A DNA stretch of 64,000 bases, from NCBI GenBank assembly GCA_963663475.2, contig CAXXJV010000001.1:416001-480000 (forward strand), given 5' to 3'. Below the pieces are notes generated by a model, which saw nothing but the letters and a program-made list of their open reading frames with translations, made no database searches and had not been told where the DNA came from. The position numbers and the translations under genes were made by a program. The stretch comes from Candidatus Cloacimonadales bacterium (GTDB lineage Bacteria; Cloacimonadota; Cloacimonadia; Cloacimonadales; JAFGVF01). Positions 1 through 33,478 of this stretch are shown in pieces (the stretch's first letter is position 1; every line of letters begins with the position of its first letter).

Positions 1-1319
1 AAAATTAGACGAAAATCTAACTTACCTCTGATAGTTTTACGTAGTTTATAGCTATTGAATTCTTGATTAATTCTAGGAAGAATAGCACTAGTAAACCACT
101 CTCGAATCTGAGTCTCTTTTTCATTATCTGTAAGATCTCTTCTTTCGCGTTTAGTTCTTTCTATTTGCCTTTTCTCTAGTTCTGTATCATCAATTTCTGT
201 AGATTCAATAGTTTCTACTTTTTCAAATCCATCACCTAGATTACTATTTAAAGTTCCAATATCAGCTGTTTCTCCAGAACCAATTCTGGCAGTTCTTCTA
301 CCTCGAACATCACTAGCTCTAACACCTCTAGCAGACACAACTGCAGTATTTATTTGACTATCAGCTTGTCTTCCTAAGGCTTCAGCAATTCCACCGTAAT
401 CTGAATCTGTATCAACATCGATATCAAAGGATGAGCTAGCCCTTGATGTACCTCTAAGTCCTCTAACTCTACTTCTAACCGCTAAGGCTGTACCTGTACC
501 AGCTTGATCACCTCCACCTTCACCAACATTTTGATATCTTTCCTGTGAGTTAGCTTGAGCTGATCGTCTTCTCTGAGCAATTCTATCTTGAATTCTTTGA
601 GCATCTGCTGCTCTTTGCTCAGCTTCTTCCTGAGCCTTGGCTTCAGCTTCTCCATCTCCCTCTTCTATAATTTCAGGTTCTTCATAAAATTCAGTAGTTT
701 CCTGACTAATTTCAATTGGAGACTCAACTTGCATACTAACCATAATATTCTCTTCAGTTCTATCAAAGATTGTTTTTGCTCGGGAAGGAGTATAGGTCCA
801 TCCCACAATTGAAGCAAAAATTATTATGGCTAAAATTACAGAGATAACAGTAAAGCGAGTTACTTTTTGCTGAGTAGATATAGCTGGCCAACGATTAAGG
901 AGACTAACCAATTTCTTTTGTTCAGCAGTTAGCGGAGCAGGCTTTGGTATGGCTCTGAAGGAAATAGTAGTATTTTCATCAATTACTACTTCTCCTTCAT
1001 AATCTTCATTAAGATATAAACGATTATCTTTGAGCAGGCCTAGACTTTTAATTTCATCAAGAGATAAGTCTTTATCTCCCTTCTTAACACTAATAGAAAA
1101 TGATTTTAATAAATTAAAATAGTATTTCCCATTCTCATTTATTATTAAATCATGTTTCTTAGGGAATGAGGGATTGTATATCTGCCATAATAGACTTGGG
1201 TCCGAACCAATAGTCAGCTTTTTACCAATTAAAAAGTGTTTATTAGTTGTACCTTCAGAAAATGCGACAGAGAATTGCTTTCCCTTATACAGATATTTTA
1301 TTAGGAATCTTTTATTCAT
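1..1319 (-). CDS. GltG/PglI(AgmX)-like TonB-family energy transducer, 3'-truncated by the window edge (absent from the ORF track)
   Basis: My translation: ATG at 1319 overlaps the upstream TAA (TAATG) and the frame stays open to base 1. MNKRFLIKYLYKGKQFSVAF...KLTIGSDPSLLWQI...LYLNEDYEGEVVIDENTTISFRAIPKPAP (FHA-like N-domain), one TM (FTVISVILAIIIFASIVGW), acidic/Ala-rich then Gly-rich linker, ending INQEFNSYKLRKTIRGKLDFRLI (start of a TonB_C/AgmX-like domain). Follows exbB-exbD-exbD. Confidence 0.8.
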   Translation of the reverse strand, partial: MNKRFLIKYLYKGKQFSVAFSEGTTNKHFLIGKKLTIGSDPSLLWQIYNPSFPKKHDLIINENGKYYFNLLKSFSISVKKGDKDLSLDEIKSLGLLKDNRLYLNEDYEGEVVIDENTTISFRAIPKPAPLTAEQKKLVSLLNRWPAISTQQKVTRFTVISVILAIIIFASIVGWTYTPSRAKTIFDRTEENIMVSMQVESPIEISQETTEFYEEPEIIEEGDGEAEAKAQEEAEQRAADAQRIQDRIAQRRRSAQANSQERYQNVGEGGGDQAGTGTALAVRSRVRGLRGTSRASSSFDIDVDTDSDYGGIAEALGRQADSQINTAVVSARGVRASDVRGRRTARIGSGETADIGTLNSNLGDGFEKVETIESTEIDDTELEKRQIERTKRERRDLTDNEKETQIREWFTSAILPRINQEFNSYKLRKTIRGKLDFRLI

Positions 1320-1915
1320 TATAAACCTCCTAAGCCGTAAGCTGATAGAAGTCTATAATAATCATCAGTTTCTCTTTTAACAAAATCTGTAGCAAAATAG
1401 AGTTTAAACTCTTTAGATTTTGATAGAGTTGTAACTGATGAGTTCTCATCATTCCAAATATCTATAAGCATTGATTTAATTGTGTTGATATATTTAAAAG
1501 GAGTGTTTCGGTGAGCTTTAACTCTCACTACAACAGGCTTATTGCCAATATTATCTCCAAGTATAGAATGAATAGTAACATCTAAAGCGCGAGTTTTAGC
1601 TGTCATCACTTCACTTGTAGTATTATTAATGTCTTCAAGCTTTGCTATAGCAATTTGCTCAGTTGAATTTTCACTCTTATAAGTTATTACACCTGAATCT
1701 CTTCCAGTATAACTTACATTAAGAGATATGATTTTACTATTATCTGCAATCTGTTCTTCAAAGAGTGCTTCTTCAAGTTCTACACCTTCAGGGACCAAAT
1801 CAGGGTCGGATGAAACATTGACCATAACAAATAATAACAAAATTGTTAAAATATCAATTAAAGAAGTAATACTCATCTGCGTAGTTTTTTTTGTTCTGTG
1901 TGCTACTGGGCTCAT
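1319..1915 (-). CDS. ExbD/TolR family protein (AglS/AglQ-like)
   Basis: N-terminal TM motif ITSLIDILTILLLF with conserved Asp21; C-terminal VRVKAHRNTPFKYI ExbD motif. Confidence 0.85.
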   Translation of the reverse strand: MSPVAHRTKKTTQMSITSLIDILTILLLFVMVNVSSDPDLVPEGVELEEALFEEQIADNSKIISLNVSYTGRDSGVITYKSENSTEQIAIAKLEDINNTTSEVMTAKTRALDVTIHSILGDNIGNKPVVVRVKAHRNTPFKYINTIKSMLIDIWNDENSSVTTLSKSKEFKLYFATDFVKRETDDYYRLLSAYGLGGL

Positions 1916-1926
1916 AGTTTACTTCC

Positions 1927-2502
1927 TTATTCGACTTCACCGATCATAATATCGGAAAATTTCATCTTTTTACATAAGTCCATTGTTTTTACAAAAACAC
2001 CAAACTTAACATAGTCTTTCGGTATTATAATAATAGGTAAGGACCTATTATCACCTTCAGAGATATTAGAATCACCATATTTATCTTCAAGCATAATTGT
2101 ACGGTAAGATTTCAAAGCCTCAGATAACTTACTAAAATCAGAAGAAAGAATTTGAGCATACTTTACATCAATTGTATCATTTTTACTGAAGGAGAATATT
2201 TCTCCCTCTTCATCAACATTGATAGTAAGTTCTAATTTTTTAATTCTTGCCTGATCTTTATCCTTTTTTTTATCTTCAGATGAAGCAGCTCCACCTGATG
2301 CGTTTGGATTAGTCAAATCCAAAGAAATATAAGCAATTGAGACTAAGACCACCATACTCAAGAGCATTGGAATCAGAGTCACGAATAAGTTCATAATCGG
2401 GACTAAATCCACTTCTTGGTGACCAGTGCTTCTATTGGCGTTTCTTCCCTGTGAAGGACTATAGATTTTATTTTTCTTTCCAACAGCAGGATTAATTCTC
2501 AT
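1927..2502 (-). CDS. ExbD/TolR family protein (AglQ/AglS-like), Asn at the conserved Asp position
   Basis: EVDLVPIMNLFVTLIPMLL TM; C-terminal IIIIPKDYVKFGVFVKTMDLCK ExbD-type motif; adjacent to exbB. Confidence 0.8.
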   Translation of the reverse strand: MRINPAVGKKNKIYSPSQGRNANRSTGHQEVDLVPIMNLFVTLIPMLLSMVVLVSIAYISLDLTNPNASGGAASSEDKKKDKDQARIKKLELTINVDEEGEIFSFSKNDTIDVKYAQILSSDFSKLSEALKSYRTIMLEDKYGDSNISEGDNRSLPIIIIPKDYVKFGVFVKTMDLCKKMKFSDIMIGEVE

Positions 2503-2506
2503 GATA

Positions 2507-3328
2507 TTAGTCCTGTACTTGGTTATTGATCACATTCATTATTTTTACACTGTTAGCATCTAATTCATTAATAATCTTCTCAGCTCTAGTAGATAAGAAA
2601 CCTTTAATAAATTGTATAGCGATAGCACCAATAAGTCCTAAAGCTGTAGTACCCATCGCTTGTTTAATACCACCCATAAGAACTTCAGTTTCTGAGATAC
2701 CAGAGAAAGCCTGGATAAGACCCATGATAGTACCGAGAAGTCCTAGATAAGTTGATGATTGAGCAAGAAGGTCAAACCAGTGAAGACCTCTATCGATTTC
2801 AGGAATTGTTTGGTAAGCAGCTTCGTTAAAAGCATTTTGAACTTCTTCCTTTAAGCTGTCACCAGTTTTGCCTGAATTTTTAGCATCTTTATATGCTAAT
2901 AAACCGATACGATAAATCTGTCCCATTGTAGTTCTTTGAACAAGTTCAGCAGCAGCGATAGCTTCTTTAAGACTACCAGACTTGACTAAACCTTTAATTT
3001 TTAAATGGAATTTGTTACTATCAATTTTCTCTTTAACCATTAACTGGTAAAAGCGAATAAGTGCATAGAATACTGAAATTAAAAAGATACCTAGAATAAC
3101 CCAGGCAAAAACTCCAGATTCTGCAAAAACTCTGATTAAATTTGTTGGCCCAAGTTTTGCAATCCAATCTTCTGAATCTTCTTCAACTTCGGCTGGAACA
3201 GATTCTTCGTTAGCATTTTCTTGAGTTACTTGATTTTCATTGACGGCTACATCTCCGTTATCTTGGGCGAATAAAAACCCAAAACAAACAACTAAAAGTA
3301 ACATAACTAATAATGCAATCTTTCTCAT
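2507..3328 (-). CDS. MotA/TolQ/ExbB proton channel protein (AglR-like) with N-terminal signal/acidic extension
   Basis: YLGLLGTIMGLIQAF and GIKQAMGTTALGL TM2/TM3 signatures. Confidence 0.92.
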   Translation of the reverse strand: MRKIALLVMLLLVVCFGFLFAQDNGDVAVNENQVTQENANEESVPAEVEEDSEDWIAKLGPTNLIRVFAESGVFAWVILGIFLISVFYALIRFYQLMVKEKIDSNKFHLKIKGLVKSGSLKEAIAAAELVQRTTMGQIYRIGLLAYKDAKNSGKTGDSLKEEVQNAFNEAAYQTIPEIDRGLHWFDLLAQSSTYLGLLGTIMGLIQAFSGISETEVLMGGIKQAMGTTALGLIGAIAIQFIKGFLSTRAEKIINELDANSVKIMNVINNQVQD

Positions 3329-3356
3329 ACGATCTCCTATTTGGTTTTTATATAAT

Positions 3357-3632
3357 TTAGTATAAAACTCTATTAGATTTTAATAATTTTTCCATTATGT
3401 AGGTTTTAAAGATGAATTCTTCATCTGTTGACATTCTTGAACGAGTAATATCTATGTCAGGTAATCCAGAAGCAAATCTAGTAACTTGCTTAATTTCGAT
3501 AGAATCATAGATAGTTTCAACATTACCCTCAACCTCTATATAAACTGCATCATCATCTTGATTAGTCTGTGCATTACAAAGGTTAAAAGCAGAAACCAGA
3601 ATAATTACTAATATCAATATTACCTTTTTCAT
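3357..3632 (-). CDS. Small exported protein, possibly GltF-like
   Basis: Signal peptide, 91 aa, DDAVYIEVEGNVET motif; sits between the TPR gene and exbB, the slot GltF-like genes occupy in Agl-Glt-type clusters. Confidence 0.55.
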   Translation of the reverse strand: MKKVILILVIILVSAFNLCNAQTNQDDDAVYIEVEGNVETIYDSIEIKQVTRFASGLPDIDITRSRMSTDEEFIFKTYIMEKLLKSNRVLY

Positions 3633-3634
3633 AA

Positions 3635-6600
3635 TTATCTCCTTTCATTTAGGGTTCGGATTTGTAGATCTATTAACAATCCGTTATCTTGCTTAGGGCT
3701 ATTGACCTCAAAAATAATCACATTTTTACCTTGGACATAGTAGTCTGGACTAATGTCTAGATATGGGGCATCAGGTGGAGCAAAGTAGTAATATTCTTCG
3801 AATCCAACCTGTTGACCGTTTAGATAGATATTAACAGTTTCATTAGCTAAGAAATATATAATACTATCAATAACTTGTCCAGTGACCTCAAATTCTTTAA
3901 CAAAGTATTTTACAGTTGGCTGATCTTCTATTACTTCTTCCTCAAGCATAGTTGAATCAGCTAGAGAAGCCACGTTAAGGGAATCAAGTCCTGTATTTGC
4001 CAACATAAGAGAATCTTCTAGTACTTGTGCAGATAAAGTATCTTGGATATTAAGGTCTGTTAGTAGATTATTTGTATCAACTTGCTTTGTTTCTTCTTGA
4101 AGGAGGTCTGTGTTTCTGTACCAAATTGGTATAGCCACAGAATTCTTGAATGCATCTAATTGGTAATAGTCCTCATCAATAGTGCCATAACTAACTTGAC
4201 CCCAGTTAGGATCATCAATTGTTAAAGTTTCTAATGAATCAGCCCCTAACCAAGTATTATCAGTGACAAGATTAAACTTAACAGCATTGTTGTGAATAAA
4301 GAGTTTTTCCTTATCATAAATCATAGCAAAGTTAAAACCGATATTGATATCATCAAATGACTTATTTACTACTTGCAATGAGATGGTATTTTGTCCCTTA
4401 GAGTAGTTCAAAGATGCAAGATTATTATCATTACTTAAACCACGATAAAGATATGGGAAAGCTGATAGAGAATCTTCAATTATCCCATCTGGTAAATATA
4501 AATTACTAATATCAACTAAATTATCATTAGCTTTGAAGCTGATAGAAACTTGATCATTGAACCAAAAATCTCCTTCCTCGACAAATCTGATTCTAGATGC
4601 CATAGGTAAGATAGGACATTCGAAGCTAGTTTCAATATGCAAAGAATCACCAGAAGGAATTGTGTAAATCATGAAATCTCTATATCCATCATTTATCTCA
4701 CTTTCTTGGATGGCAGAAAAATCTTTACGCATTGAAGCTAAGAAGGGAATTTCTATCTCCTCTTTAGCTACTACTTCTGAAACACCAACCTTTTGTAAGA
4801 AAGCTACAATTTCATCTGTCCCAGGTAGAGGATTTGTTATTCCATCGATATATGTTTCATAAATTGATTTTGCATACCCAATACCGATATTATCAAATTC
4901 AGTAGCATACTGGCCTCTAACTAGATAGATTTCATCTTCATAAGCATAAAGAATCTCATCTTGTTCCTCATAGGTTAAATCAGTTCTGCCATAGATGATA
5001 TTTTGATAATTGACATATTGTCCATTTGGTAAGGTAAGGAATTTAGTAATTTGATTATAAATTAAATCACCACTATATTTAGCAATTTTAAATTTAGCAT
5101 AATCCAACTTATAAATTTCTTCTCTCTTTTCATCAACAGTTAATAAATCACTATCAAAAACTCTTTGGGCATCTTGGTCTATCAGAGCAAATTGATTTTT
5201 CACTAATTCAACAAAGTTATTAATTCTCTTATTTTCACCATATAGGTGAGTATTCCATGTAGTAGCATTGTTAACCTTAATTCTTTCATTAACTTCTGCA
5301 GGAACATCTATAAATTCCATAAATTTGTTGTATCTAATTTCAAGATCAGCTAAGAATGCTTTCTTTTCTTGTTCTCTTTCATAATCAAGAGTGTATTTAT
5401 CATAGCGTTCAAGTGATGAAGGTATAGCAATTGTCTCAGCAGGAATACCATTTGCAGTAAAGGTTTCTGCTTGAGCTTTAAAGTCTTCGATTAGAGATAG
5501 CATTCTATCCCATTCTTTATTGCGATAGGCCTTTTTAATCTCCTCATCAATAGGAGATAATTGTTCAACTGCATATCTAGGATATCTTACTGATGTATTA
5601 TCCGTTGCGTAAAGTATCTTAATGTATTCAAGATAGTTTTCATCATCTTCTAGTTCTTCATAAAGACTACAAATAAGGTTGAGGATGTAAATTCTCTCAT
5701 AGTCAGGGAACTTCAAGTTAAAAGCAACCCATTCTTGGACTTCATCTTCTTTAGATAAAGTTCTACATTTCATCTCAATAGCATTGAAATAATAATCTTC
5801 AGCCTTTAAGTCTAGAGAAGAAATATCTAATTTATCTCCTTCTTGGCTAGCTCTTTCATAGATTTCCAGCATCTTTTCAGAAGCTAATAAAGGATCATAT
5901 GTAGTAAGAGTTGAATCTTGGACAACACCTAATCTGCTTATTAAAATAACAAATGTCTGCTGGTCATTAGGGAATCTTCCCATAAATGTATCTTCAATTT
6001 CTTGTGTTCTTTCTTTATAACCAAGAGAATCTGTTATCGAGATAGCAGCACTATAGTTGTTCCATGCTTCTTCAATTGTTTTACTTGCATCACCTTGTTC
6101 AAGTAAACGACTAACAGCAGTATCGTAATCACCACCAGCAGCATAGAGAGCTATTGCATTTCTACGTAATTCAGCTTTCTTAGCTTCATCAATAACTGAA
6201 GACTGAAGAACTTTTTCCATTTCTTGAGCAGCTTTTACCTTATCTTCCTGGTTATCTGTGCTTTGAAGCTGGCTAATTTTGGCTGATCTATTATTAAAGA
6301 TTTCTTTTTCATACTCTGTTTTTTTCTCATCATCAACAAACTCTTTAGCCTTAGCGAAATACTCAATGGAAGAATCAATATCACCGTCAGCTTTATATAA
6401 TTCAGCAAGATTACGGAAGATACTTTCTTTATATTCATCTGAGATATTTAAGTCATTACAAGCTAAGAAGTCTGCTTTAGCTCCATCATTATCCCCCATT
6501 CTCCTCTTAGTTAAACCTCTATAATATAAAAGTTTATAAATAGTTTGGTCTTTATCGGGTATATCTGATGTGGATAGGAAATCATAGAATCTATTTGCAA

Positions 6601-9600
6601 TACTTATGTACTGGCTCCTTCTTTCACTTTTAATATCTTCAATTTCTTGAGTACTATAGTTTAAGGTATCAAAATTAGTAGTATCTGTTATTACAGAAAC
6701 ATTATAAGCCCAACTGTAAGCATTTTGCTCTAAATCAGTCCTAATGTCAGTTTCAGGATTTCTATCAATGAAGTTATAAACCTTTTCTATACCATAATTA
6801 TAAGCAGTAGTATCCTGTTGAGATCTCACATATTTCACAATAGCACTAATATTATTTTGATCATATATTTTAAGACGTTGAGCCCTAATTTCTTCATCAA
6901 ATCCAACATAATTGGCATATTCCTCTGTTGCATTAGTGAAGGACATTATATTTTCCATGTTAGGATTTGCATCTACTTTACTATATAAGTCTGGTAAGAT
7001 GAAATCATCAAAACCTTTTTGAATAACCTTAACATATGGACTTAAATCTTGATTCTTATTGTACTCATACCAATCACTAGTATAGCCATATCTTGCAATA
7101 GCTTTTCGATATTCTCTTTCACCTCTGATATCTAAAGAGTCTCCTAGTTCAAGAGAATAACGACTCATAGTTGTAATGATTGAATCTGTATAGACAGGGT
7201 TTGTAATAGCATATAAATCTACTCTAGACCTAGCGTCATAAAGAGTAATAATATCCTCAAATTCATCAAAGATTCTTTTCTTCTCTAATAGTTTTTGAAA
7301 AATATTATTAGCAGTGGATTCATCATAGAGGGTGAAGAGCTTATTCATAACATAATCTTTTGACTTCAGTTCAACATTTGGCAAGTAGTCAACTTCATTT
7401 AATGAATAAACGATTATGTCTTCAGCAGCACTATACTTATTCTTTTGATATTCAGTAAACATATCCTTATCTGCAAGCAAGATTTCTAAATCTGCAATAG
7501 CTGCTTCATAGTTTTGAATAGCCATTTTGTGCCATGCTCTTTGGAATAAAGCTTCATACTTTTGATCAAGACTACCAAGTGCATATATTTGGTCATAAAC
7601 TTTGATAGAAATACCGACATACTTTGCTGGGTCATCAGCATCAACAGCAATATCAAAATATAATTTAGCAAGACGTAACATTGATTCAATTTGATACTTA
7701 CTGTTAACATCCTTACTAAGTTCTAAGTAGTTATCAATTACTTCTCTATATTTACTTACTGATTTTGTGACAGATTCTGGTCGAGGTTGGTAGAAATAGT
7801 TTTCATCTTTCATTTTTTCTTCACGAAGATTAGCTATTTCTAAATCTAAAATTTGATTTTTATAATAAGCCAAATTGTAGAGGACCACATCTTTCTGTGG
7901 GAAATCAGGGTTTAATTCAAGAACCTTTTGATAGTTATTATAGATTAAATTATAGTTGTTACTATATATAATAGTAGCAATTTCAGCTAAATTAAAGTAT
8001 AGTTTAAAATTATTATTGAAGTTATTATTCTTGAAGATAAAAGCATTTGTTCTATTATATATGCTTTCATACTGGTCTTCATATTGGCCATATTCAGCCT
8101 CAGAAAGAGCTAAAGAATCACGATCTGCTTCTTCTAAACGACTTTTATAATTCTCGTTTAATTTGCGGAAATCTAAATCTAAAGCTATGAAATCAACATA
8201 AGTTTGTTGTTCATTTTTTATTTGATTAAATTTATTAAAAGAGTTAGAGTAAATTGATATTTTACCATCTAACTCTTTAAATTTATCCTTAACTTCTGCT
8301 TCAGCTTTAGCTGCAACAGTCTCATAATATGTATCTATAACTTTTCTTCTTTTAACTTCTAACTTACTTTCTTGAGCTAAAAATTCTTCTACTTTCTCTT
8401 CAGCTAATTCTTGTTTTTCAGATAAGTTTGGGAACTCAGCTAAATCAAACTTAGCCTTAACTCTTATCTCATCTAAATTCTCTTGTTCATCCTTAAGAAG
8501 CTGGCGTAGTTCGCTATTTTTTTGAGGATAAGATCTTGTTTTATCTACTAAATTAGAAAGATTAACAATATATTTCTTCTTGAGATAGAGTTGATTAGCA
8601 TACCAATAGGCTCTCAAGAATTGATCATCATTAGGACTTTCGATATCACTAAGAAGTTCTTCAGTAATATCAAGTAGGTAATCTTCCTCTTTATTTGCCC
8701 TGTCTCGATTTGCGATAGCGATTAATTCGTCTTTAGGTCTATTTCTATATTGATCAATAAGATCAAGTTCAACAAAATAGGTTTCAGTTCTTTCAATGAA
8801 GGTTAGTTCGAGTTCTTTGATAAGCTGAACAGATCTAGGATCTAAGAAAGAAATCTTTTCTTCTAAAACTAATTGGTTTGCAAGAACTGCTTCTTCCTTA
8901 CTAGTTATTTGCTCTCTTAAAATATTTTTTCTAGTTTCTTCAGTTTCCATTAAGAGGTTATTTCTTAAAGATCTAATTTCATTCATGAGATTTCTATTCT
9001 GAAGTAAACTAGTAAAATAATCATCTACTCTTGCTTGGTAACTAGTCATTAAGTTTGAAGCACTATCTCCATTATTAAGTTCATGGTCAATCAGTATTAA
9101 GTTGTAAAGAGTCTGAACATAGAAATCATTAGCATTTTTTGATTCAAGTAATCTTTCAAAAGTGGTTTTTGCCTTTTGGAGATTACCCGCTTTTCTGTGA
9201 GCAATACCTATTTCATAGATAACTTCACTTATGTTATCATTGTTCAATTGGCTATATGCTTGATAATAAGAAACAGCTGTTTCGGGATCTCCGTAATGAG
9301 AAAACAATCTTGCAATAGAGAGTAGAACAAAGTCATAGTAAGGTGTATCTGGCGAAAAGTTGTTTTGTAAAACATCAAAAATAGCTGTAGCTTCCTCAAT
9401 TCTTCCTTCAGAAAGAGAAATGAGAGCTAAAGTCGCAGTTGATCTGAGCGTATATTCAGTATCAATAGCAGCTTCTTCCAGATATTTTTGAGCATCATTA
9501 AATCTACCGATGTTGTAGAGAGATTGTCCATATCTGAACTTTTGTGATGCTAATTCAAATTCAGGATACTCTTCAACTAATTCCACATATTCTTGATCTT

Positions 9601-10078
9601 TTCCTGATTTAAATAGAGCTAATTTCCAGTAACGAATGGTTACGTTTTTACGGTTACTGTCTGGATATCTTCTTACTAAATCATTTGCTTTGAGAGTTAC
9701 CATATCCCAATCTTGAGAATAAACAGCTTTTTTGCAATCGAGAAATAGCAAATCGTCTTGTAGGCTTGCTACATTACGATAGGCCTTAAACATCATACTT
9801 CTGATGAAATTAGAATATTCTCGATCATTCTCTTTTATAAGAGTGAAGTAGGCTTCTTCATCTTCGGCAAATTTATCTTCTATTCCAGATATATTATTAG
9901 CTCTAAGCAAGTCATTTACTTGAGTAATTCTCTCTTCTTCAATAGCATTACGAATCTCGTCTAAACTGGCAACATCTCCCCCATTATCTGCAGGAGAAGT
10001 TTGAGAGTAAAGAGTTAGTAATGATAAGTTTATAAGAAGAAGGATCAACAACATCTTCTTTATACACATACTACCCAC
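3635..10078 (-). CDS. Giant exported TPR protein (2147 aa), GltC-like + GltD/AgmU-like regions, C-terminal beta-sandwich
   Basis: Signal peptide; many TPR motifs (LLSIARLFSHYGDPETAVSYY; NPDFPQKDVVLYNLAYY; YEALFQRAW); coiled coil; C-terminal YFVKEFEV...NIYLNGQQVG...QGKNVIIFEV jelly-roll-like segment. Confidence 0.8.
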   Translation of the reverse strand: MGSMCIKKMLLILLLINLSLLTLYSQTSPADNGGDVASLDEIRNAIEEERITQVNDLLRANNISGIEDKFAEDEEAYFTLIKENDREYSNFIRSMMFKAYRNVASLQDDLLFLDCKKAVYSQDWDMVTLKANDLVRRYPDSNRKNVTIRYWKLALFKSGKDQEYVELVEEYPEFELASQKFRYGQSLYNIGRFNDAQKYLEEAAIDTEYTLRSTATLALISLSEGRIEEATAIFDVLQNNFSPDTPYYDFVLLSIARLFSHYGDPETAVSYYQAYSQLNNDNISEVIYEIGIAHRKAGNLQKAKTTFERLLESKNANDFYVQTLYNLILIDHELNNGDSASNLMTSYQARVDDYFTSLLQNRNLMNEIRSLRNNLLMETEETRKNILREQITSKEEAVLANQLVLEEKISFLDPRSVQLIKELELTFIERTETYFVELDLIDQYRNRPKDELIAIANRDRANKEEDYLLDITEELLSDIESPNDDQFLRAYWYANQLYLKKKYIVNLSNLVDKTRSYPQKNSELRQLLKDEQENLDEIRVKAKFDLAEFPNLSEKQELAEEKVEEFLAQESKLEVKRRKVIDTYYETVAAKAEAEVKDKFKELDGKISIYSNSFNKFNQIKNEQQTYVDFIALDLDFRKLNENYKSRLEEADRDSLALSEAEYGQYEDQYESIYNRTNAFIFKNNNFNNNFKLYFNLAEIATIIYSNNYNLIYNNYQKVLELNPDFPQKDVVLYNLAYYKNQILDLEIANLREEKMKDENYFYQPRPESVTKSVSKYREVIDNYLELSKDVNSKYQIESMLRLAKLYFDIAVDADDPAKYVGISIKVYDQIYALGSLDQKYEALFQRAWHKMAIQNYEAAIADLEILLADKDMFTEYQKNKYSAAEDIIVYSLNEVDYLPNVELKSKDYVMNKLFTLYDESTANNIFQKLLEKKRIFDEFEDIITLYDARSRVDLYAITNPVYTDSIITTMSRYSLELGDSLDIRGEREYRKAIARYGYTSDWYEYNKNQDLSPYVKVIQKGFDDFILPDLYSKVDANPNMENIMSFTNATEEYANYVGFDEEIRAQRLKIYDQNNISAIVKYVRSQQDTTAYNYGIEKVYNFIDRNPETDIRTDLEQNAYSWAYNVSVITDTTNFDTLNYSTQEIEDIKSERRSQYISIANRFYDFLSTSDIPDKDQTIYKLLYYRGLTKRRMGDNDGAKADFLACNDLNISDEYKESIFRNLAELYKADGDIDSSIEYFAKAKEFVDDEKKTEYEKEIFNNRSAKISQLQSTDNQEDKVKAAQEMEKVLQSSVIDEAKKAELRRNAIALYAAGGDYDTAVSRLLEQGDASKTIEEAWNNYSAAISITDSLGYKERTQEIEDTFMGRFPNDQQTFVILISRLGVVQDSTLTTYDPLLASEKMLEIYERASQEGDKLDISSLDLKAEDYYFNAIEMKCRTLSKEDEVQEWVAFNLKFPDYERIYILNLICSLYEELEDDENYLEYIKILYATDNTSVRYPRYAVEQLSPIDEEIKKAYRNKEWDRMLSLIEDFKAQAETFTANGIPAETIAIPSSLERYDKYTLDYEREQEKKAFLADLEIRYNKFMEFIDVPAEVNERIKVNNATTWNTHLYGENKRINNFVELVKNQFALIDQDAQRVFDSDLLTVDEKREEIYKLDYAKFKIAKYSGDLIYNQITKFLTLPNGQYVNYQNIIYGRTDLTYEEQDEILYAYEDEIYLVRGQYATEFDNIGIGYAKSIYETYIDGITNPLPGTDEIVAFLQKVGVSEVVAKEEIEIPFLASMRKDFSAIQESEINDGYRDFMIYTIPSGDSLHIETSFECPILPMASRIRFVEEGDFWFNDQVSISFKANDNLVDISNLYLPDGIIEDSLSAFPYLYRGLSNDNNLASLNYSKGQNTISLQVVNKSFDDINIGFNFAMIYDKEKLFIHNNAVKFNLVTDNTWLGADSLETLTIDDPNWGQVSYGTIDEDYYQLDAFKNSVAIPIWYRNTDLLQEETKQVDTNNLLTDLNIQDTLSAQVLEDSLMLANTGLDSLNVASLADSTMLEEEVIEDQPTVKYFVKEFEVTGQVIDSIIYFLANETVNIYLNGQQVGFEEYYYFAPPDAPYLDISPDYYVQGKNVIIFEVNSPKQDNGLLIDLQIRTLNERR

Positions 10079-10103
10079 TTATCAAATTATTAAGTTAATT
10101 AAT

Positions 10104-11108
10104 TTACTCTAATTCTTCTAACTCATCAATTAGGTTATCTAACTCTGACTGTTTTTTCAATTCAGCTTCTCTTAATGCTCTAATTTGTTCTAAGATACTA
10201 GAACCAGTACCTTGGTTTGTATTAGTTTCAAGGTTCTGTCTTTGGGTTCTAACTCTTTCAGGATTTGCTTCAAAAACACCTTGTTTAGTAGCTTTAGAGT
10301 CTGCCCAACGTGTAATTCTGTATTGGATATTGAAAGCCATTTTTAGGTTGTCTTGATTTTCCTTAATAAACTCTTCAATTTCAATAATAGAGTATTGAAG
10401 GGCTAGGTTATTCCAGTTATATTTAGCACCGAAGTTAATGGCATGACCACTTTGTTCAGCGAAAACACTGAAATTGTTCTTAGGGAAAAGAGCAGTTGGA
10501 TAGTATTCAAAAGTTCCAAAGAGTCCGTTAAAGTCTTGAGCAAGATCTCTTTGTCCTACGAAACGATTAGTTCCGAGTCCAACGGTAACATATAGTTGCA
10601 TATCTCCTAAAATGTTAACATCTCTAAGAGCCCATGATTTAGTTGCAGCAACGTAGAAAGAGTTCTTTTCATAAGTAGTTGCTTGTGGGATATCTGCCCA
10701 ATCTTCAAAGTCTTCGTCTTCATAATCAACAGCGTCAGTACCAACTTTTGAGAAGAGGTTATCGACACCTAGGGTAATACCTGGGTATTCAAAAGTTTCT
10801 TGAACTAATTGATATTTGAAGTTAGCATAAAAAACTTCATCTCCTGTATATACAAAACCTAATTCTGCTCTATCGAAAAGTCCGTATTTAGCTTGAATAA
10901 CGTAATTGTATTCATAATCAGCAGGGTCAGTAGATCCTTGTTCTAAACCGTCTCTTAAATATGATGCAAAATTGACTGAGATTTGATTTGCAGGCATAAC
11001 AAAACCGTCAGGCACATCAATATTGCCTAGGGTTCCAAATGGAACAGCTACAAGAGCATTAATACAAAGTAAAACACTCATAATAAGTAAAATTTTTTCT
11101 CTCATCAC
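10104..11108 (-). CDS. Putative outer-membrane beta-barrel, YjbH-like, with C-terminal coiled coil
   Basis: Signal peptide, GTLGNIDVPDGFVMP YjbH-like start, alternating aromatic beta-strands, helical acidic tail; RBS AAGGAG. Confidence 0.65.
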   Translation of the reverse strand: MMREKILLIMSVLLCINALVAVPFGTLGNIDVPDGFVMPANQISVNFASYLRDGLEQGSTDPADYEYNYVIQAKYGLFDRAELGFVYTGDEVFYANFKYQLVQETFEYPGITLGVDNLFSKVGTDAVDYEDEDFEDWADIPQATTYEKNSFYVAATKSWALRDVNILGDMQLYVTVGLGTNRFVGQRDLAQDFNGLFGTFEYYPTALFPKNNFSVFAEQSGHAINFGAKYNWNNLALQYSIIEIEEFIKENQDNLKMAFNIQYRITRWADSKATKQGVFEANPERVRTQRQNLETNTNQGTGSSILEQIRALREAELKKQSELDNLIDELEELE

Positions 11109-11200
11109 AATTTCTCCTTTATGTACACTTAATCGTTAATAATCAAGTTTTTTTGAATTTTCTTTTTTTAGTCATTTTCACTCATCTCTAATTAAATGAA

Positions 11201-11218
11201 TTGACAAAATAGAGTCAA
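11201..11218. promoter_or_regulatory. Overlapping divergent -35-like boxes (TTGACA on +, TTGACT on -) between the motor operon and yraN
   Basis: TTGACAAAATAGAGTCAA, with inverted TTGAC/GTCAA, in the divergent intergenic region. Confidence 0.4.
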
Positions 11219-11235
11219 GCTTTTTTTTTCATTTT

Positions 11236-11628
11236 ATGAATAAATCTAACAAGAACAAAATATTTGGTAAATTAGGTGAAAGTTTAGCAAGTAGTTATTT
11301 AGCAAAAAATGGCTTTGTAATAGTAGAGAAGAACTTTCGTTGTTTTTCTGGCGAGATAGATATTATTGCACAAAAAGAAGATTTATTAATAATTGTTGAG
11401 GTCAAATCTAGAAAAAATATTGATAGTGATGAGACCATGCTATCTATTACAAAGTCTAAGCAAAGAAAAATAAGCCGAGCTACTGCTGATTTCATAGATA
11501 AGAACCAGCAGTATTCGGACAATTTTATCAGGTTTGATATAATAACAGTTATCAAGCATCCTTACTTGGATGAGTATTCAATCAATCATTATGAAGATGC
11601 TTTCTCTTATATTGCAGATGAAAGGTAA
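11236..11628 (+). CDS. yraN: YraN/UPF0102 family endonuclease-like protein
   Basis: GKLGESLA, NFRCFSGEIDII, VEVKSR, RFDII motifs. Confidence 0.92.
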   Translation: MNKSNKNKIFGKLGESLASSYLAKNGFVIVEKNFRCFSGEIDIIAQKEDLLIIVEVKSRKNIDSDETMLSITKSKQRKISRATADFIDKNQQYSDNFIRFDIITVIKHPYLDEYSINHYEDAFSYIADER

Positions 11629-11725
11629 GCAGGAATCCATAATTATTCTTGGTAAAAACACAGAATTATGAATGATTTATTTTTTCCTATCTTAAAAAAT
11701 CTTCATCCAGCAGTGTGTAATTCTT

Positions 11726-13114
11726 TTATTTAAGTCTTTCTACATCAAAATCTTGACCGAGGTAGAATTTATAATCTGCAGAGACATTAATATCGTTATC
11801 ATTATAAACATATATTAACTTATGCCCGTTGTTCATATTTACATCAAAGAAGGTGTAGCTAGCTAATTTTTTTGTAGCATATCTCCAGATTTCGTATTCC
11901 TTATCATTGAAAACAGCTCTTCTTTCCAATAGAGCGTCAGCATCATACTTATCAGTTGCATCTAACTCGCCAACCATAAATTTTTCAATATCATCAGGAG
12001 GACCGTACAAGATATAAATTTTGCCTCTATCAGAAGCCCAGCCTGGTTTATGATGGGAGAATTTTTGATTTGAGTAATCAATTCTTTCTTTTAGGGTAGA
12101 GATAAGCATTTCAGGGGTGATAGCCTGGGAATTAGCATATCTTTCCCAGAATTTATTTATTTCTTGTCTTTTCCTAGAGGAAGTGAAGGCATCCCAAGAA
12201 CTTTGAGTATTAGAATAGCCAAAATATCTCATAAGCTTAAATTCATCATCGCGATTATCAAATATGTAATAAGTTTCACCAGGGTAATCTGAGATTGAGA
12301 AATCAGTATAAGTCCTATTGTTTTCAACTTGGTTAAGTGATTTTACGGTAACATAATAGATGCCTTTAGGTAACTTTTGAATGTTAATAGCTTGGGTAAT
12401 GTTAGCTGTTTCTGAATTACTTAATCCACTTTTCTGCATAAAATCGACTTGCTGATCAAAAGAATCTTTTACTTCAATTATGTAGTCATATTTCCACTGA
12501 GATTTGGAGTGTCTTGTTAGACCTTGTAATTGAAAGTAGGCATAAAGACTATCAATAGTCTCTTTATAAAATATTCTTGAAGGGTTGGATTTATAAAGTT
12601 TTTTACCTCTATACATATATTTAAACTTATCATTAACTTGTGTGCTGACATAGTCATTTAGTTCAACATCACTAATATAGCGGTCATTAATTAGCTTAAG
12701 GTCTTTTTGGAAGATATAGGTATCTTTACTTACCATATCAATAAATTTCATTTCCAAGGTATTGCCCGAGCTGGGGTAATCAAAGCTATATCTATCGATA
12801 TGTTCACGAGTTTTGGATTCAATATCTTTTAGATCAGAGACAATAATTTGTTCAGCAAAAGCCTCCTGGTGGAGTATTTTATTACTATTGTATATTTTAA
12901 CTTCAATTCTTAACCCTGCAATAGCTCCACTCTTATCTTCGTTAATTTTAAAAGTAAGGTCTTGATATTTCACAGAATAGTTAACATCAATAATGGTGCG
13001 TTGATTTGCATCAAAAAAGTTAAGACCTTCAACACTAATATTCAAGTTCTTTGCCCAAGACATTGCTATCATTGATAATAGCACTAATAAAATGAATGTT
13101 TTTTTAGAAATCAT
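11726..13114 (-). CDS. GWxTD domain-containing exported protein
   Basis: FW...RIDYSNQKFS...GWASDRGKIYILYGPPD; likely start MISKKTFILL at 13114, which gives a signal peptide. Confidence 0.85.
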   Translation of the reverse strand: MISKKTFILLVLLSMIAMSWAKNLNISVEGLNFFDANQRTIIDVNYSVKYQDLTFKINEDKSGAIAGLRIEVKIYNSNKILHQEAFAEQIIVSDLKDIESKTREHIDRYSFDYPSSGNTLEMKFIDMVSKDTYIFQKDLKLINDRYISDVELNDYVSTQVNDKFKYMYRGKKLYKSNPSRIFYKETIDSLYAYFQLQGLTRHSKSQWKYDYIIEVKDSFDQQVDFMQKSGLSNSETANITQAINIQKLPKGIYYVTVKSLNQVENNRTYTDFSISDYPGETYYIFDNRDDEFKLMRYFGYSNTQSSWDAFTSSRKRQEINKFWERYANSQAITPEMLISTLKERIDYSNQKFSHHKPGWASDRGKIYILYGPPDDIEKFMVGELDATDKYDADALLERRAVFNDKEYEIWRYATKKLASYTFFDVNMNNGHKLIYVYNDNDINVSADYKFYLGQDFDVERLK

Positions 13115-14213
13115 ACTCTTCTTCTTTGTTGTATAGTTTGTAGTCTTCGATTCTAGATCGATCATAAAAAATGAAAGTTTTATTTAACCGATAATAGTGC
13201 CAGGTTTGCGTTGGATATCTCCCTACAGGATTATTATCAACACTTATTTCATCAGGTTCACCAAACTTTATATAAATCCTACCACGATCAGTTTGCCAAC
13301 CTTGCTTATAACGGTGAACTGAGAACTTTCTGTCTGCCTGTAAAATCCTATTATAGAAAAGATCTTGCAAACTAGAATTCTGAGATTCTTTAGGATTGTT
13401 AGAAGCCCAAAATTGCAATACTTTCTCAGAATCGGTCCAATTCTTATTACGATTAATTTCCTTCCAAGTTTTATCATTAACAATATATTTTATTTGACTG
13501 AGTTGGTCTTCCCAGCTGTATTTCTTCTGAAAACTATTAAGATATTTTTCCAGTTTAAGTTCTGATTGATATAGGTCATTAGCCAGTTTAAACTCAATAT
13601 AATTGTTAGTAAAATCTTCTATAAGGTAGTCAGCTTTAAGTTTTGTTAAGAGTTCCTTACTTGTAGGAAGTTCACTTACCTTTCTGTTATTTTTAGATTC
13701 ACTAACAAATTTTAATGTCTGAGTTTCAGTTTCATACAACTGGTAGAGATAGATATTATTGGAAGTTTCAATATCTTCCCAAGAAAGGACTTCCATATAG
13801 ATATTTTCCATTTTTTTCACTAAGTACAAAGCTGAAAAGTGTTGATTTTTTTCTACAAAAAACTCAAATTTTTCTTCTTTTTTATCATTTCTTAGCTTGT
13901 TGTTTAATTTTAGAAAAGCTGTATATTGGCCAGGTTCTACTTGTGTTTTCAAGAAGAATATCAAACGTTGGTTATTCTCAAGTTTATCAGACTTTAATTC
14001 AATATCTTCTTTTGCTAAATAGACTGATTTATTATTCTCATCAAAGAGCTCGAAAATCATCCGATAAGCAATTTCACCTTTCTTACTAAAAAGATCATTG
14101 CTGTCTATTCTCAGAGTAAGAAGAGTCTCATCACCTACCAATTGCGGGCTAAGATCAGCTGCAAATAAGAGATTGACTAGCAAGAAAAAGATTATCATCA
14201 AAGCTACTTTCAT
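13104..14213 (-). CDS. GWxTD domain-containing exported protein
   Basis: FW...RILQADRKFS...GWQTDRGRIYIKFGEPD; signal peptide; ATGA overlap with dnaE. Confidence 0.88.
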   Translation of the reverse strand: MKVALMIIFFLLVNLLFAADLSPQLVGDETLLTLRIDSNDLFSKKGEIAYRMIFELFDENNKSVYLAKEDIELKSDKLENNQRLIFFLKTQVEPGQYTAFLKLNNKLRNDKKEEKFEFFVEKNQHFSALYLVKKMENIYMEVLSWEDIETSNNIYLYQLYETETQTLKFVSESKNNRKVSELPTSKELLTKLKADYLIEDFTNNYIEFKLANDLYQSELKLEKYLNSFQKKYSWEDQLSQIKYIVNDKTWKEINRNKNWTDSEKVLQFWASNNPKESQNSSLQDLFYNRILQADRKFSVHRYKQGWQTDRGRIYIKFGEPDEISVDNNPVGRYPTQTWHYYRLNKTFIFYDRSRIEDYKLYNKEEEYDF

Positions 14214-30600: not shown

Positions 30601-30748
30601 TAGCTACTTTCCATAAATCTCCTCGATAAACAAAAGTTACTTCACTTGCATCTGGTGATACAGCTGGGTCTTTTACGAAATGTGGTTCAAATGCCGCAAC
30701 ATAAATACTCATGATTAGCAAAAACCCTACAATTAAAATCTTCTTCAT
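27662..30748 (-). CDS. Tricorn-like S41 peptidase (beta-propellers, PDZ, protease)
   Basis: PD40-like repeats, GEVNASH, IDVRGNGGG, SFSDAE, TNMEGNGVQPD; signal peptide. Confidence 0.93.
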   Translation of the reverse strand: MKKILIVGFLLIMSIYVAAFEPHFVKDPAVSPDASEVTFVYRGDLWKVAIEGGLASRLTDTDSGISSPKYSPDGQTIAFNYYKDGYNAVYTIPAIGGEITKVSGAGLGLLTWFPDGENILANKYSPRLGSAFYKVSLDESRDVEITPIGGSFPSISQDGNSIIYSDRGDPYREAYRGSTDGELWKYDIKQDKYEKLTDNELTERYPELSKVYPERLYYAKSDGQVFQLFRVNNFDFNNEEQLTDFPTWSVRDISIAQVKDIIAFEKFDEIWIYDDKPERGDKLRKLDIDIRENQDVNSMIRRYVTNGFADFEVSPNDDFVIFNYEYDLFMMPAAGGPVKQITYNQVPYEGIRILSDNKTVVVNGRERGEGKIFKFTIDNPQEIEKIAWSEDYSISGISKSPAGNYIIDYYIDRDRRHIAIADSTFTYFTPIDFNKYDVTEYADRINSRYIAYVEFDMEKRVTYLYLRDTIIQESYLLYNSYKSIYNLTWGKDDKSLFFTESGDIRRIDLRPFDKLADYQDPWEKLLNSSDQVEEKKETGDKLPKDYPELDIDLPGVESRITTIVSHPGYNYILSVVNDSTIYYANSNGSTNLYKSNYQGQNEEKLTTINDRTYFSYNDKSSTYYYNDGSKLNSYNLKTRASGEIKNSFFYEFDLKNLRQQVFKEVWGVFGLSFYDPQMHGVDWDELYEKYEPYLQYCYDEEVLSNIVDEMIGEVNASHTGFSPKYYDSRFSYQIGYIGVEFDLSERLNKGVKLRRLYDGTSLKDYYKLEEGDLILAINDQEITPDVDIYPLFFNIVNRKVKLRVKKQKEEAFDVWIEGFDWSRNYDLEYNDWVNRRREIVNEISDGKLAYLHIRRMNNTAYKKFLEDFWNDNIKKDGFIIDVRGNGGGNISEELVEAIRKRPLSISSYRGWGFRKMKTPARYYDKPIVVLIDEDSFSDAEVFPHLMQEQKLGTIIGMPTSGSVIGTFDIDLFDGSSLRLPRSGWWTLSGTNMEGNGVQPDIRVELTPEDMINDNDRQLKTAIQYLLDK

Positions 30749-33401: not shown

Positions 33402-33478
<77 letters not shown>

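What the first reader, a model, noticed from the sequence alone, without database searches (positions are those of the whole stretch)
1..11108. Agl-Glt-like envelope-spanning motor operon in a probable non-myxobacterium
Seen: seven tightly packed minus-strand genes (gaps 0-28 nt): OM barrel, giant TPR, 91-aa exported protein, ExbB, ExbD, ExbD, and an FHA-like/TM/TonB-like protein missing from the ORF track. Known: this set matches the core of the Myxococcus xanthus Agl-Glt gliding machine (AglR/Q/S, GltG, GltF, GltC/D), whose relatives in non-gliding bacteria have no established function. No TonB-dependent receptor, TolB or Pal is in view, so it does not look like an ordinary Ton or Tol locus. 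Inference: a lineage-specific ion-driven machine for envelope transport, surface polymer handling or motility.
Basis: partly seen in the sequence, partly recalled or inferred. Interest (0 to 1): 0.85.

Follow-up and report, generated by a model that had tools for sequence, protein, structure and literature searches.

The report
Glt-core-like envelope motor operon, Cloacimonadota
Seven tightly packed genes of an uncultured Cloacimonadota bacterium encode a proton-channel motor, a long membrane-anchored transducer, a giant periplasmic scaffold and an outer-membrane barrel that are distant relatives of the core of the Myxococcus gliding machine, whose job in non-gliding bacteria is still unknown.

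Summary
Seven co-directional minus-strand genes (spacing -1 to 28 nt) keep their order in 6 of 7 related Cloacimonadales genomes; the seventh is cut by a contig end. The last gene runs 150 nt past base 1 (489 aa) and is followed by a terminator-like hairpin and ackA, not a TonB-dependent receptor or tolB-pal.

The 489-aa protein has an FHA fold, one membrane helix, a ~200-aa disordered linker and a TonB-like C-terminal domain. A profile of it against 1.84 billion proteins found 86 hits. The most distant 13 all carry the AgmX/PglI domain and 12 match the GltG model; hhalign gives 99.8%.

Those relatives sit in same-order clusters in KSB1, Calditrichota, Fibrobacter and Myxococcota. Sampled clusters of all four share an ExbD pair in which the first copy lacks the membrane Asp. 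The 2147-aa TPR protein looks like a fusion of the two TPR genes plus a beta-rich tail.

So this is a divergent, phylum-wide member (163 of 232 genomes) of the Glt/Agl "core complex", known since 2011 in non-gliders including Fibrobacter. The GltF and Glt-barrel equivalences are not supported. Function remains inferred. It is a new variant of a known kind, of moderate interest.

The parts
10104..11108 (-). Exported 334-aa protein: signal peptide, predicted 12-stranded outer-membrane beta-barrel, disordered stretch, then a C-terminal charged helix (305-333). It is the first gene of the operon. The likely start is the ATG at 11105.
   Evidence: ORF. AF2 model pLDDT 63.6, pTM 0.60. Foldseek PDB hits are all OM barrels. 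41 relatives, the named ones from Cloacimonadota. Weak hhalign match to the first gene of KSB1/Calditrichota clusters (72%, E 3.4e-5). Those proteins also end in a charged helix with a similar motif.
3635..10078 (-). 2147-aa exported TPR giant. Residues ~130-400 resemble the short TPR gene of related clusters, and ~715-1340 resemble the long TPR gene. Residues ~1450-2147 are a non-TPR tail with no family match. The likely start is the ATG at 10069.
   Evidence: Pfam TPR families. Full-length relatives number only 13, plus three 1444-1462-aa forms. One of these (P0016) aligns to residues 673 to about 2110. hhalign to the KSB1 short TPR 93% and long TPR 97%, colinear. No Pfam, PDB or Atlas match for the tail.
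3357..3632 (-). 91-aa exported protein with a near-invariant C-terminal motif (last ~23 residues). No family.
   Evidence: Conserved in 7 of 7 Cloacimonadales loci. No Pfam or NCBIfam match. No similarity to the 110-145-aa gene at the same position in KSB1 clusters (hhalign 2%).
2507..3328 (-). 273-aa MotA/TolQ/ExbB-family channel protein with a signal peptide and an acidic N-terminal extension.
   Evidence: PF01618 1.7e-21. The best NCBIfam match is TolQ, 1.6e-16, below its cut-off. A quick ML tree places it with the channel proteins of Glt-like clusters, SH-aLRT 96 against 9 other paralogues.
1927..2502 (-). 191-aa ExbD/TolR-family protein, type D1. The membrane Asp is replaced by Asn (PIMNLF).
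   Evidence: PF02472 2.4e-9. Alignment of the membrane helices.
1319..1915 (-). 198-aa ExbD/TolR-family protein, type D2. The membrane Asp is kept (SLIDIL).
   Evidence: PF02472 3e-6. Alignments.
1..1319 (-). GltG-like transducer: the first 439 of 489 codons. The gene ends 150 nt beyond base 1. It has a cytoplasmic FHA fold (1-125), a membrane helix (149-175), a charged disordered linker and a TonB-like C-terminal domain (398-488).
   Evidence: A terminator-like hairpin follows the stop codon, before ackA.

Best explanation
This operon is the Cloacimonadota version of the Glt/Agl 'core complex' family.

Shown here:
- Gene content, order and conservation.
- The folds of the first and last gene products.
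- Full-length profile homology of the last protein to GltG-like proteins.
- An ExbD pair with only one membrane Asp, shared with the sampled clusters in other phyla.

Inferred mechanism:
- The ExbB-like protein and the D1/D2 pair form a TolQR-type 5:2 proton-driven stator in the inner membrane.
- The membrane helix of the GltG-like protein rides on the stator. Its FHA domain faces the cytoplasm, its ~200-aa disordered linker crosses the periplasm, and its TonB-like end docks on the exported TPR giant.
- The giant, with the 91-aa protein, links to the outer-membrane barrel through the barrel's periplasmic C-terminal helix.
- The output is mechanical work on outer-membrane or surface components, such as holding, moving or exposing surface proteins or polymers. 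It is not receptor-mediated nutrient uptake.

The only functional hint from a relative is that the same-order cluster of Fibrobacter succinogenes rises on cellulose and two of its products sit in a vesicle complex with cellulases.

The confidence given covers the whole statement. I hold membership of the family at about 0.8 and the stated kind of output at about 0.35.
For: - Organism and conservation: ExbB relatives are Cloacimonadales MAGs. The seven-gene order is kept in 6 of 7 loci, the seventh being truncated. The GltG-like gene is found in 163 of 232 genomes of the phylum, in 114 of 151 high-quality ones and in 42 of 66 genera.
- Family link: a profile of 8 Cloacimonadales proteins against 1.84e9 representatives gave 86 hits. 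The 13 weakest all hit NF033768, and 12 of 13 hit NF033760 gliding_GltG, below its cut-off. hhalign between the two sets gives 99.8%, E 7e-29, over 418 columns.
- Structure: FHA fold, membrane helix, disordered linker and C-terminal domain.
- Synteny: 29 KSB1/Calditrichota-type loci show the order ~340 aa / TPR / TPR / small / ExbB / ExbD / ExbD / GltG-like. Fibrobacter has OmpA-family / TPR / TPR / TolQ / ExbD / ExbD / AgmX-domain protein. 14 Myxococcota-type loci show the long TPR / ExbB / D1 / D2 upstream of the GltG-like match; the short TPR also hit in 7 of them.
- Shared signature: D1 has Asn at the Asp position (Gly in Fibrobacter) in 5 Cloacimonadales, 5 KSB1-type, 1 Fibrobacter and 8 of 8 Myxococcota clusters examined. 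D2 keeps Asp in all of them. The genome's own Ton and Tol ExbDs all keep Asp.
- Tree: cluster-linked channel proteins are split from 9 other paralogues (SH-aLRT 96).
- The genome has a separate canonical Ton locus.
- Contigs of two RNA libraries of one study carry the operon. Pieces bridge the barrel-giant, giant-small and small-ExbB junctions.
- Literature, passages read: the core complex in non-gliders including F. succinogenes (PMC3169522); GltG architecture and its predicted docking on GltD (PMC11761067); FSU_2396-2403 up on cellulose (PMC6851124).
Against: - The window's own 489-aa protein matches no Pfam or NCBIfam model, including GltG and AgmX/PglI. The link rests on profile searches and intermediates that the profile itself selected.
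- No named M. xanthus sequence could be compared. The Myxococcota loci are MAG clusters whose GltG-like proteins score below the GltG equivalog cut-off.
- A review states that both AglQ and AglS keep the membrane Asp (PMC9389320). The Asn/Asp asymmetry may therefore separate these compact clusters from the gliding motor proper.
- TPR-to-TPR profile matches are partly repeat-driven.
- The barrel link is weak (72%), and the small protein has no link at all.
- The tree is a quick search with long Cloacimonadota and Fibrobacter branches that meet.
- No experiment bears on function in this phylum. RNA-library contigs do not exclude DNA carry-over.
- The identity of the Fibrobacter locus with FSU_2396-2403, and with Luciano's core, is inferred from gene order only. 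The supplements are closed.
Confidence: 0.6

Rival explanations
1. It is a Tol-Pal-like housekeeping system. The stator and transducer would energise outer-membrane tethering or constriction through a CpoB-like TPR scaffold and an outer-membrane anchor, replacing the missing TolB-Pal.
For: - The genome has no TolB or Pal match above the curated cut-offs.
- The operon is single-copy, widely conserved in the phylum and sits among housekeeping genes (ackA, dnaE).
- The TPR genes of the KSB1 and Fibrobacter clusters exceed the YbgF/CpoB model cut-off, and Fibrobacter's first gene carries a Pal-like OmpA domain.
- The channel protein's best NCBIfam match is TolQ.
Against: - The window's giant does not hit the YbgF model.
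- Its barrel has no OmpA/Pal peptidoglycan-binding domain.
- A second TolQ/TolR-like pair lies elsewhere in the genome (L071).
- The transducer family is nearest to GltG-like proteins, not TolA.
Confidence: 0.22
2. It is a divergent Ton system. The transducer would energise uptake through the 12-stranded barrel or through unlinked TonB-dependent receptors.
For: - The ExbB-ExbD-ExbD-transducer order is that of Ton loci in this superphylum, including this genome's own.
- More distant family members carry Pfam TonB_C.
- The authors of the Fibrobacter proteome paper proposed cellodextrin uptake (PMC6851124).
Against: - No receptor lies in the 16 kb downstream or next to the operon.
- The barrel has no plug or receptor domains.
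- A complete canonical Ton locus with a receptor exists elsewhere.
- D1 lacks the membrane Asp that both canonical ExbDs keep.
- No His is conserved in the transducer's membrane helix. The role of such a His in TonB and TolA is taken from PMC12204202.
Confidence: 0.1
3. It is a working gliding-motility machine of Cloacimonadota.
For: It is homologous to the core of the Myxococcus gliding machine. A VWA lipoprotein in the same genome shares the transducer's C-terminal domain, which recalls the CglB adhesin.
Against: Luciano 2011 argues that the core alone does not give motility and that gliding needs further genes restricted to Myxococcales and Bdellovibrionales. None of those was found here. 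Motility of these uncultured bacteria is not documented in the papers I read.
Confidence: 0.05

Closest known systems
[quoted passage not shown] 2011 (PMC3169522)
   Same: - A single operon-like cluster with a TolQ-like channel, two TolR-like proteins, a GltG-like transducer and periplasmic TPR proteins.
- Present in a non-myxobacterium.
- Function unknown.
   Different: - One fused 2147-aa TPR protein with a beta-rich tail replaces two or three TPR genes.
- The transducer has diverged so far that curated GltG and AgmX models miss it.
- The cluster has its own barrel with a coiled-coil tail and its own 91-aa protein.
- The host phylum was not in that survey, as far as the passages I read show.
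Myxococcus xanthus GltG (FHA - FHA - membrane helix - disordered linker - TonB-like domain; PMC11761067)
   Same: - A cytoplasmic FHA fold directly before the membrane helix.
- A long disordered periplasmic linker.
- A TonB-like end.
- A gene next to, or working with, a TolQR-type motor.
   Different: - 489 aa with one FHA domain, against about 650 aa with two.
- No hit to NF033760 or NF033768.
- Gene order with the motor is compact here, whereas the paper places the motor and glt genes of M. xanthus in separate clusters.
Fibrobacter cluster: OmpA-family / TPR / TPR / TolQ / ExbD / ExbD / AgmX-domain protein. This matches the pattern of FSU_2396-2403 in PMC6851124.
   Same: - Same gene order and same superphylum.
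- The D1 copy lacks the membrane Asp.
- The transducer belongs to the same family.
   Different: - Fibrobacter's transducer lacks the FHA domain (about 310-350 aa; the best match in each of 16 genomes begins at profile position 182 or later, behind the FHA part).
- Its outer-membrane protein is OmpA-like.
- It has two separate TPR genes.
Canonical Ton (ExbB-ExbD-TonB with receptors) and Tol-Pal systems
   Same: - Same motor superfamily.
- Same logic of a membrane-anchored transducer that reaches the outer membrane.
   Different: - No receptor, TolB or Pal.
- FHA domain on the transducer.
- An ExbD pair with a single Asp.
- A giant TPR partner.

Membership tests
Glt/Agl core complex (Luciano 2011) | Adjacent genes for one MotA/TolQ/ExbB-family protein and two ExbD/TolR-family proteins | tested here: met
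   Pfam PF01618 1.7e-21; PF02472 2.4e-9 and 3e-6.
Glt/Agl core complex (Luciano 2011) | GltG-type transducer architecture: cytoplasmic FHA, one membrane helix, long linker, TonB-like end | tested here: met
   AF2 model and Foldseek. hhalign to GltG-like proteins 99.8% over the full length.
Glt/Agl core complex (Luciano 2011) | The transducer reaches the curated models NF033760 (GltG) or NF033768 (AgmX/PglI C-terminal domain) | tested here: not met
   No hit for the 489-aa protein even at E<=10. Only the distant relatives reach them.
Glt/Agl core complex (Luciano 2011) | Periplasmic TPR proteins homologous to GltD, GltE and GltC in the cluster | tested here: inconclusive
   A TPR giant with a signal peptide is present. 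It gives colinear hhalign matches to the two TPR genes of KSB1 clusters (93%, 97%). No named GltC/D/E was available. The KSB1 short TPR hits the GltC model only weakly (1.5e-10, below cut-off).
Glt/Agl core complex (Luciano 2011) | Gene trees place the proteins with M. xanthus Agl/Glt rather than Tol/Exb | tested here: inconclusive
   A quick ExbB tree groups the window with the cluster-linked proteins of Myxococcota MAGs, KSB1 and Fibrobacter against 9 other paralogues (SH-aLRT 96). It has no named references, long branches, and the careful search did not finish.
Complete M. xanthus Agl-Glt gliding machine | GltF homologue | tested here: not met
   The 91-aa protein matches no family and not the small gene of KSB1 clusters. 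It is a positional analogy only.
Complete M. xanthus Agl-Glt gliding machine | Group A and cytoplasmic parts (GltA/B/H/K, GltI/J, CglB, AglZ, MglA) | not tested
   No searches were made for these. A VWA lipoprotein that shares the transducer's end was seen elsewhere in the genome, but it was not shown to be a CglB relative.
Ton system | TonB_C domain at the Pfam cut-off and a TonB-dependent receptor partner nearby | tested here: not met
   No TonB_C hit on the protein. No receptor in the 16 kb downstream or next to the operon. The receptor matches found lie about 8 kb beyond the window's far end and elsewhere.
Ton system | The ExbD membrane Asp is kept | tested here: not met
   D1 has Asn and D2 has Asp. 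The genome's own Ton and Tol ExbDs all have Asp.
Tol-Pal system | tolB and pal linked to tolQRA | tested here: not met
   ackA follows the operon. No TolB or Pal match above the cut-off anywhere in the genome.

The most novel reading that the evidence does not exclude
The ancestral job of the Glt core may be motor-driven handling of surface adhesins, and the Cloacimonadota operon may still do it.

In this genus a VWA-domain lipoprotein carries a copy of the transducer's TonB-like end (67% identical; the coding DNA is 83% identical over 113 nt). It could therefore dock on the same site of the giant TPR shaft or the barrel. The proton motor could then load, move or expose that adhesin on the surface of a non-gliding anaerobe.

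This would give the long-unexplained 'core complex' of non-gliders a testable cargo. It would also link it to CglB in Myxococcus and to the cellulose-adhesion complex of Fibrobacter.
Probability: 0.2. Interest if true: 0.75.

Novelty: new variant of a known kind. Interest (0 to 1): 0.5.

Why it matters
The Glt/Agl core complex has been known since 2011 as a conserved machine of unknown function in bacteria that do not glide.

This work shows the same gene order in Cloacimonadota, KSB1, Calditrichota, Fibrobacter and Myxococcota. The sampled clusters of these groups share a signature: one Asp-less ExbD beside one Asp-bearing ExbD. Together these widen the family and give comparative handles on its function:
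- Which parts are always present: the motor trio, the transducer and the TPR scaffold.
- Which parts are swapped: the outer-membrane protein and the small protein.
- Which parts are fused.

The system is present in most Cloacimonadota, which are common in anaerobic digesters. The genome lacks a recognisable TolB-Pal, so the operon may be central to their envelope or surface biology. The adhesin that shares the C-terminal domain offers a concrete binding experiment.

Tried and rejected
- Complex prediction of the transducer's C-terminal domain (392-489) with the mature 91-aa protein gave 'no answer', score 0.00 in both runs. It counts neither way.
- The giant's tail (residues 1450-2147) gave no PDB sequence match at E<=1, no usable Atlas lead (best 0.86, TPR clusters) and no Pfam match at E<=1 beyond noise, also for two relatives.
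- hhalign of the small protein against the small gene of KSB1 clusters gave 2%.
- With only 7 close sequences the barrel gave 8%. With 32 diverse sequences it rose to 72%.
- One KSB1 first-gene protein found nothing in 3 Myxococcota genomes. My naive ORF calling on the high-GC Myxococcota stretch could not be read. Whether Myxococcota clusters start with such a barrel therefore stays open.
- The first Fibrobacter locus fetched (L057) held a lone AgmX-domain gene, not the cluster.
Narrower ones worked.
- The careful ML search did not finish in 300 s, so the quick tree is reported.
- RNA libraries: bins 11133-12100 and 13069-14500 beside the operon had no cover in X5 and X18, while the DNA run X6 covered them. 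X21 had no cover at all.
- Supplements of Luciano 2011 and Raut 2019 were not open. I could not confirm which F. succinogenes genes form their core complex, or what FSU_2399 is.
- Literature searches listed no paper that joins Agl-Glt or GltG terms with Cloacimonadota, Calditrichota or KSB1. One search listed 20 of 176 papers and one search listed 15 of 142, so this is not exhaustive.
Full report
**What is there.** The window is G000:C1:416001-480000 of a 3.3-Mb genome at 33% G+C. Seven minus-strand genes fill 1-11108: a 334-aa exported protein, a 2147-aa TPR protein, a 91-aa exported protein, a 273-aa MotA/TolQ/ExbB-family protein, two ExbD-family proteins (191 and 198 aa), and a gene that leaves the window. 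The spacings are 25, 2, 28, 4, 11 and -1 nt. Fetching the genome to the left shows that the last gene is 489 aa. A terminator-like hairpin follows it (12-bp stem and a T run), then ackA. Beyond that lie a radical-SAM gene and type IX secretion cargo genes on the other strand. Upstream of the operon are yraN (plus strand), two GWxTD genes and dnaE. No receptor, tolB or pal is adjacent.

**Organism and conservation.** The closest ExbB relatives are Cloacimonadales MAGs at 55-89% identity. In 6 of the 7 loci all seven genes are present in the same order; the seventh locus is cut inside the giant. ackA follows directly in six of the seven, and about 4 kb further on in L009. A profile of the last protein finds it in 163 of 232 genomes of the phylum, in 114 of 151 high-quality genomes and in 42 of 66 genera.

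**The last protein.** Neither Pfam nor NCBIfam matches it, even at E<=10.
- A profile of eight Cloacimonadales copies (A1) was scored against 1.84 billion representatives. It found only 86 proteins at E<=0.001, most of them about 440-530 aa long.
- Of ten clusters looked up, the two with names are Cloacimonadota.
- I scanned 67 of the 86, leaving out 7 close copies and 12 short fragments. Of these, 22 show Pfam TonB_C at E<=0.01 (6 above the cut-off) and two show FHA-type hits.
- The 13 weakest hits (A3) all reach NF033768, the AgmX/PglI C-terminal domain. Twelve match NF033760 gliding_GltG, best 4e-60, all below the equivalog cut-off.
- hhalign of A1 against A3 gives 99.8%, E 7e-29, from end to end. 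A3 was chosen by the A1 search, so this confirms the link rather than testing it independently.
- The AF2 model (75 sequences, pLDDT 76) has a beta-sandwich at 1-125, a helix at 149-175, a mostly disordered stretch at 199-390, and a helix followed by beta-beta-alpha-beta at 398-488. Its Foldseek PDB hits are FHA domains, with two type III secretion cytoplasmic domains among them.
- This is the architecture described for GltG, which has two FHA domains (PMC11761067, passages).

**Related clusters.** Relatives of four A3 members lie in KSB1, Calditrichaceae/Caldithrix and variously labelled MAGs (39 loci).
- In 29 loci examined the genes before them repeat one pattern: ~340 aa, TPR ~460 aa (or two ~225-aa ORFs), TPR ~950-1090 aa, a 110-160-aa gene, ExbB ~207, ExbD ~152, ExbD ~172, then the GltG-like gene ~445 aa. 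Families were checked on L017.
- Four other A3 members lead to Myxococcota and 'Deltaproteobacteria' MAGs: 519 relatives, of which 80 were kept. In all 14 loci I examined, the long TPR, ExbB, D1 and D2 lie upstream of the GltG-like match; the short TPR also hit in 7 of them. Their ExbB is 43-50% identical to that of KSB1.
- All 16 Fibrobacter-genus genomes searched carry AgmX-domain proteins, and the best match in each lacks the FHA part. Two loci show OmpA-family 511 aa, TPR about 750-790 aa, TPR about 1250-1290 aa, TolQ-like, two ExbD-like and a transducer (308 aa in L068, 332 aa in L069).
- This is the pattern of FSU_2396-2403. Raut et al. found those proteins raised in cellulose-grown cells, and cite FSU_2396 and FSU_2397 as part of a vesicle complex with cellulases (PMC6851124, passages and table text). 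The equivalence is by gene order only.
- Luciano et al. described a clustered 'core complex' (gltD, E, G, C, aglR, Q, S and one extra gene) of unknown function in some beta- and gammaproteobacteria, Geobacter and F. succinogenes (PMC3169522, passages).

**A shared signature in the motor.** In every Glt-like cluster examined, the first ExbD has Asn at the position of the membrane Asp (Gly in Fibrobacter), and the second keeps Asp. This holds for the window plus 4 Cloacimonadales, 5 KSB1-type and 1 Fibrobacter cluster, and for 8 of 8 Myxococcota clusters. The three ExbDs of the genome's canonical Ton and Tol-like loci all keep Asp. A quick ML tree of 38 channel proteins puts the 29 cluster-linked ones on one side of a branch (SH-aLRT 96), away from 9 other paralogues. 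The Cloacimonadota and Fibrobacter branches are long and meet, and there are no named references. Against a simple identity with the gliding motor, a review says both AglQ and AglS keep the Asp (PMC9389320). I could not check this on sequence.

**The other parts.**
- The giant has few relatives: 13 full-length and three of about 1450 aa. One of the latter aligns to residues 673 to about 2110.
- hhalign places the KSB1 short TPR on residues 132-398 (93%) and the long TPR on 715-1339 (97%). The giant thus reads as short TPR + long TPR + a tail with no family match. TPR repeats inflate such scores, so the colinearity and the split form are the better arguments.
- The barrel model is of moderate confidence, and all its listed matches are outer-membrane barrels.
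- The first gene of KSB1 clusters has the same layout (signal peptide, beta-rich body, charged C-terminal helix) and a similar terminal motif. hhalign with 32 diverse Cloacimonadota sequences gives 72%, E 3e-5, so homology is probable but not shown.
- The 91-aa protein is conserved, especially its last ~23 residues, but it has no relatives outside the order.

**Genome context.** There are four MotA/ExbB loci.
- A canonical receptor-ExbB-ExbD-ExbD-TonB locus.
- A TolQ/TolR-like pair followed by a 268-aa protein of no family.
- A MotA/MotB pair beside a FliG_C protein and a Wzz-type kinase.
- This operon.

No TolB or Pal reaches its cut-off, so a Tol-like housekeeping role cannot be dismissed.

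**Expression.** Contigs from two RNA libraries of one study carry the operon. In X5, 23 of 29 pieces are at least 99% alike. Pieces bridge the barrel-giant, giant-small and small-ExbB junctions. This is compatible with transcription but is not proof of it.

**Verdict.** Mechanism and function are inferred from the anatomy and from the Myxococcus and Fibrobacter literature. The operon is a new, fused and strongly diverged variant of a known kind.

Noticed in passing
G000:C1:1534440-1536623 (L073:4440-6623, minus strand); outside the window: A 727-aa probable lipoprotein with a VWA domain (PF13519 5.9e-15). Its last ~94 residues are 67% identical to the C-terminal domain of the window's transducer; the coding DNA is 83% identical over 113 nt. 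A second VWA gene (751 aa) lies next to it. Two of six other genomes of the genus show 756- and 760-aa frames with the same end.
   Followed up: partly
G000:C2:158815-165195 (L072): An unusual neighbourhood on one strand: a FliG_C-domain protein (478 aa), MotA-like (245 aa), MotB/OmpA-like (229 aa), an AAA protein, and a Wzz/tyrosine-kinase-type protein (891 aa). It pairs a stator-like couple with polysaccharide chain-length genes.
   Followed up: no
window 11726-13165 and 13104-14213 (minus strand): Two adjacent GWxTD-domain proteins (479 and 369 aa) lie between yraN and dnaE. The listed frames overlap by 62 nt, so one start may be later.
   Followed up: no
L003:6659-12349 (4-9 kb left of the window): Type IX secretion cargo genes: a 548-aa protein with a lamin-tail domain and a Por_Secre_tail, and a 1307-aa C25 peptidase with a CHU_C-type sorting domain.
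   Followed up: no
window 30206-30685 (within a 1032-aa minus-strand frame): A weak TolB-propeller-like match (47.5 bits against a cut-off of 343). It is one of the two best TolB-like hits in the genome and is not a canonical TolB.
   Followed up: no
L070:6059-9244 (G000:C1:1166058-1169243): A 1061-aa protein of no Pfam family lies directly after the canonical ExbB-ExbD-ExbD-TonB genes.
   Followed up: no
L009:13530-17447: In one Cloacimonadales genome about 4 kb lie between the transducer gene and ackA. In the other six loci ackA follows directly.
   Followed up: no
window 46293-46684 (+) and 33405-33478 (-): RNase P RNA (class A, 247.6 bits) and one tRNA were the only Rfam matches in the window.
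   Followed up: no
L012-L049, the gene just before ExbB: The 110-160-aa exported protein of KSB1/Calditrichota clusters has its own strongly conserved core (LDKIEILG...KPQT.FI.PG). This core is unrelated to that of the Cloacimonadota 91-aa protein.
   Followed up: partly
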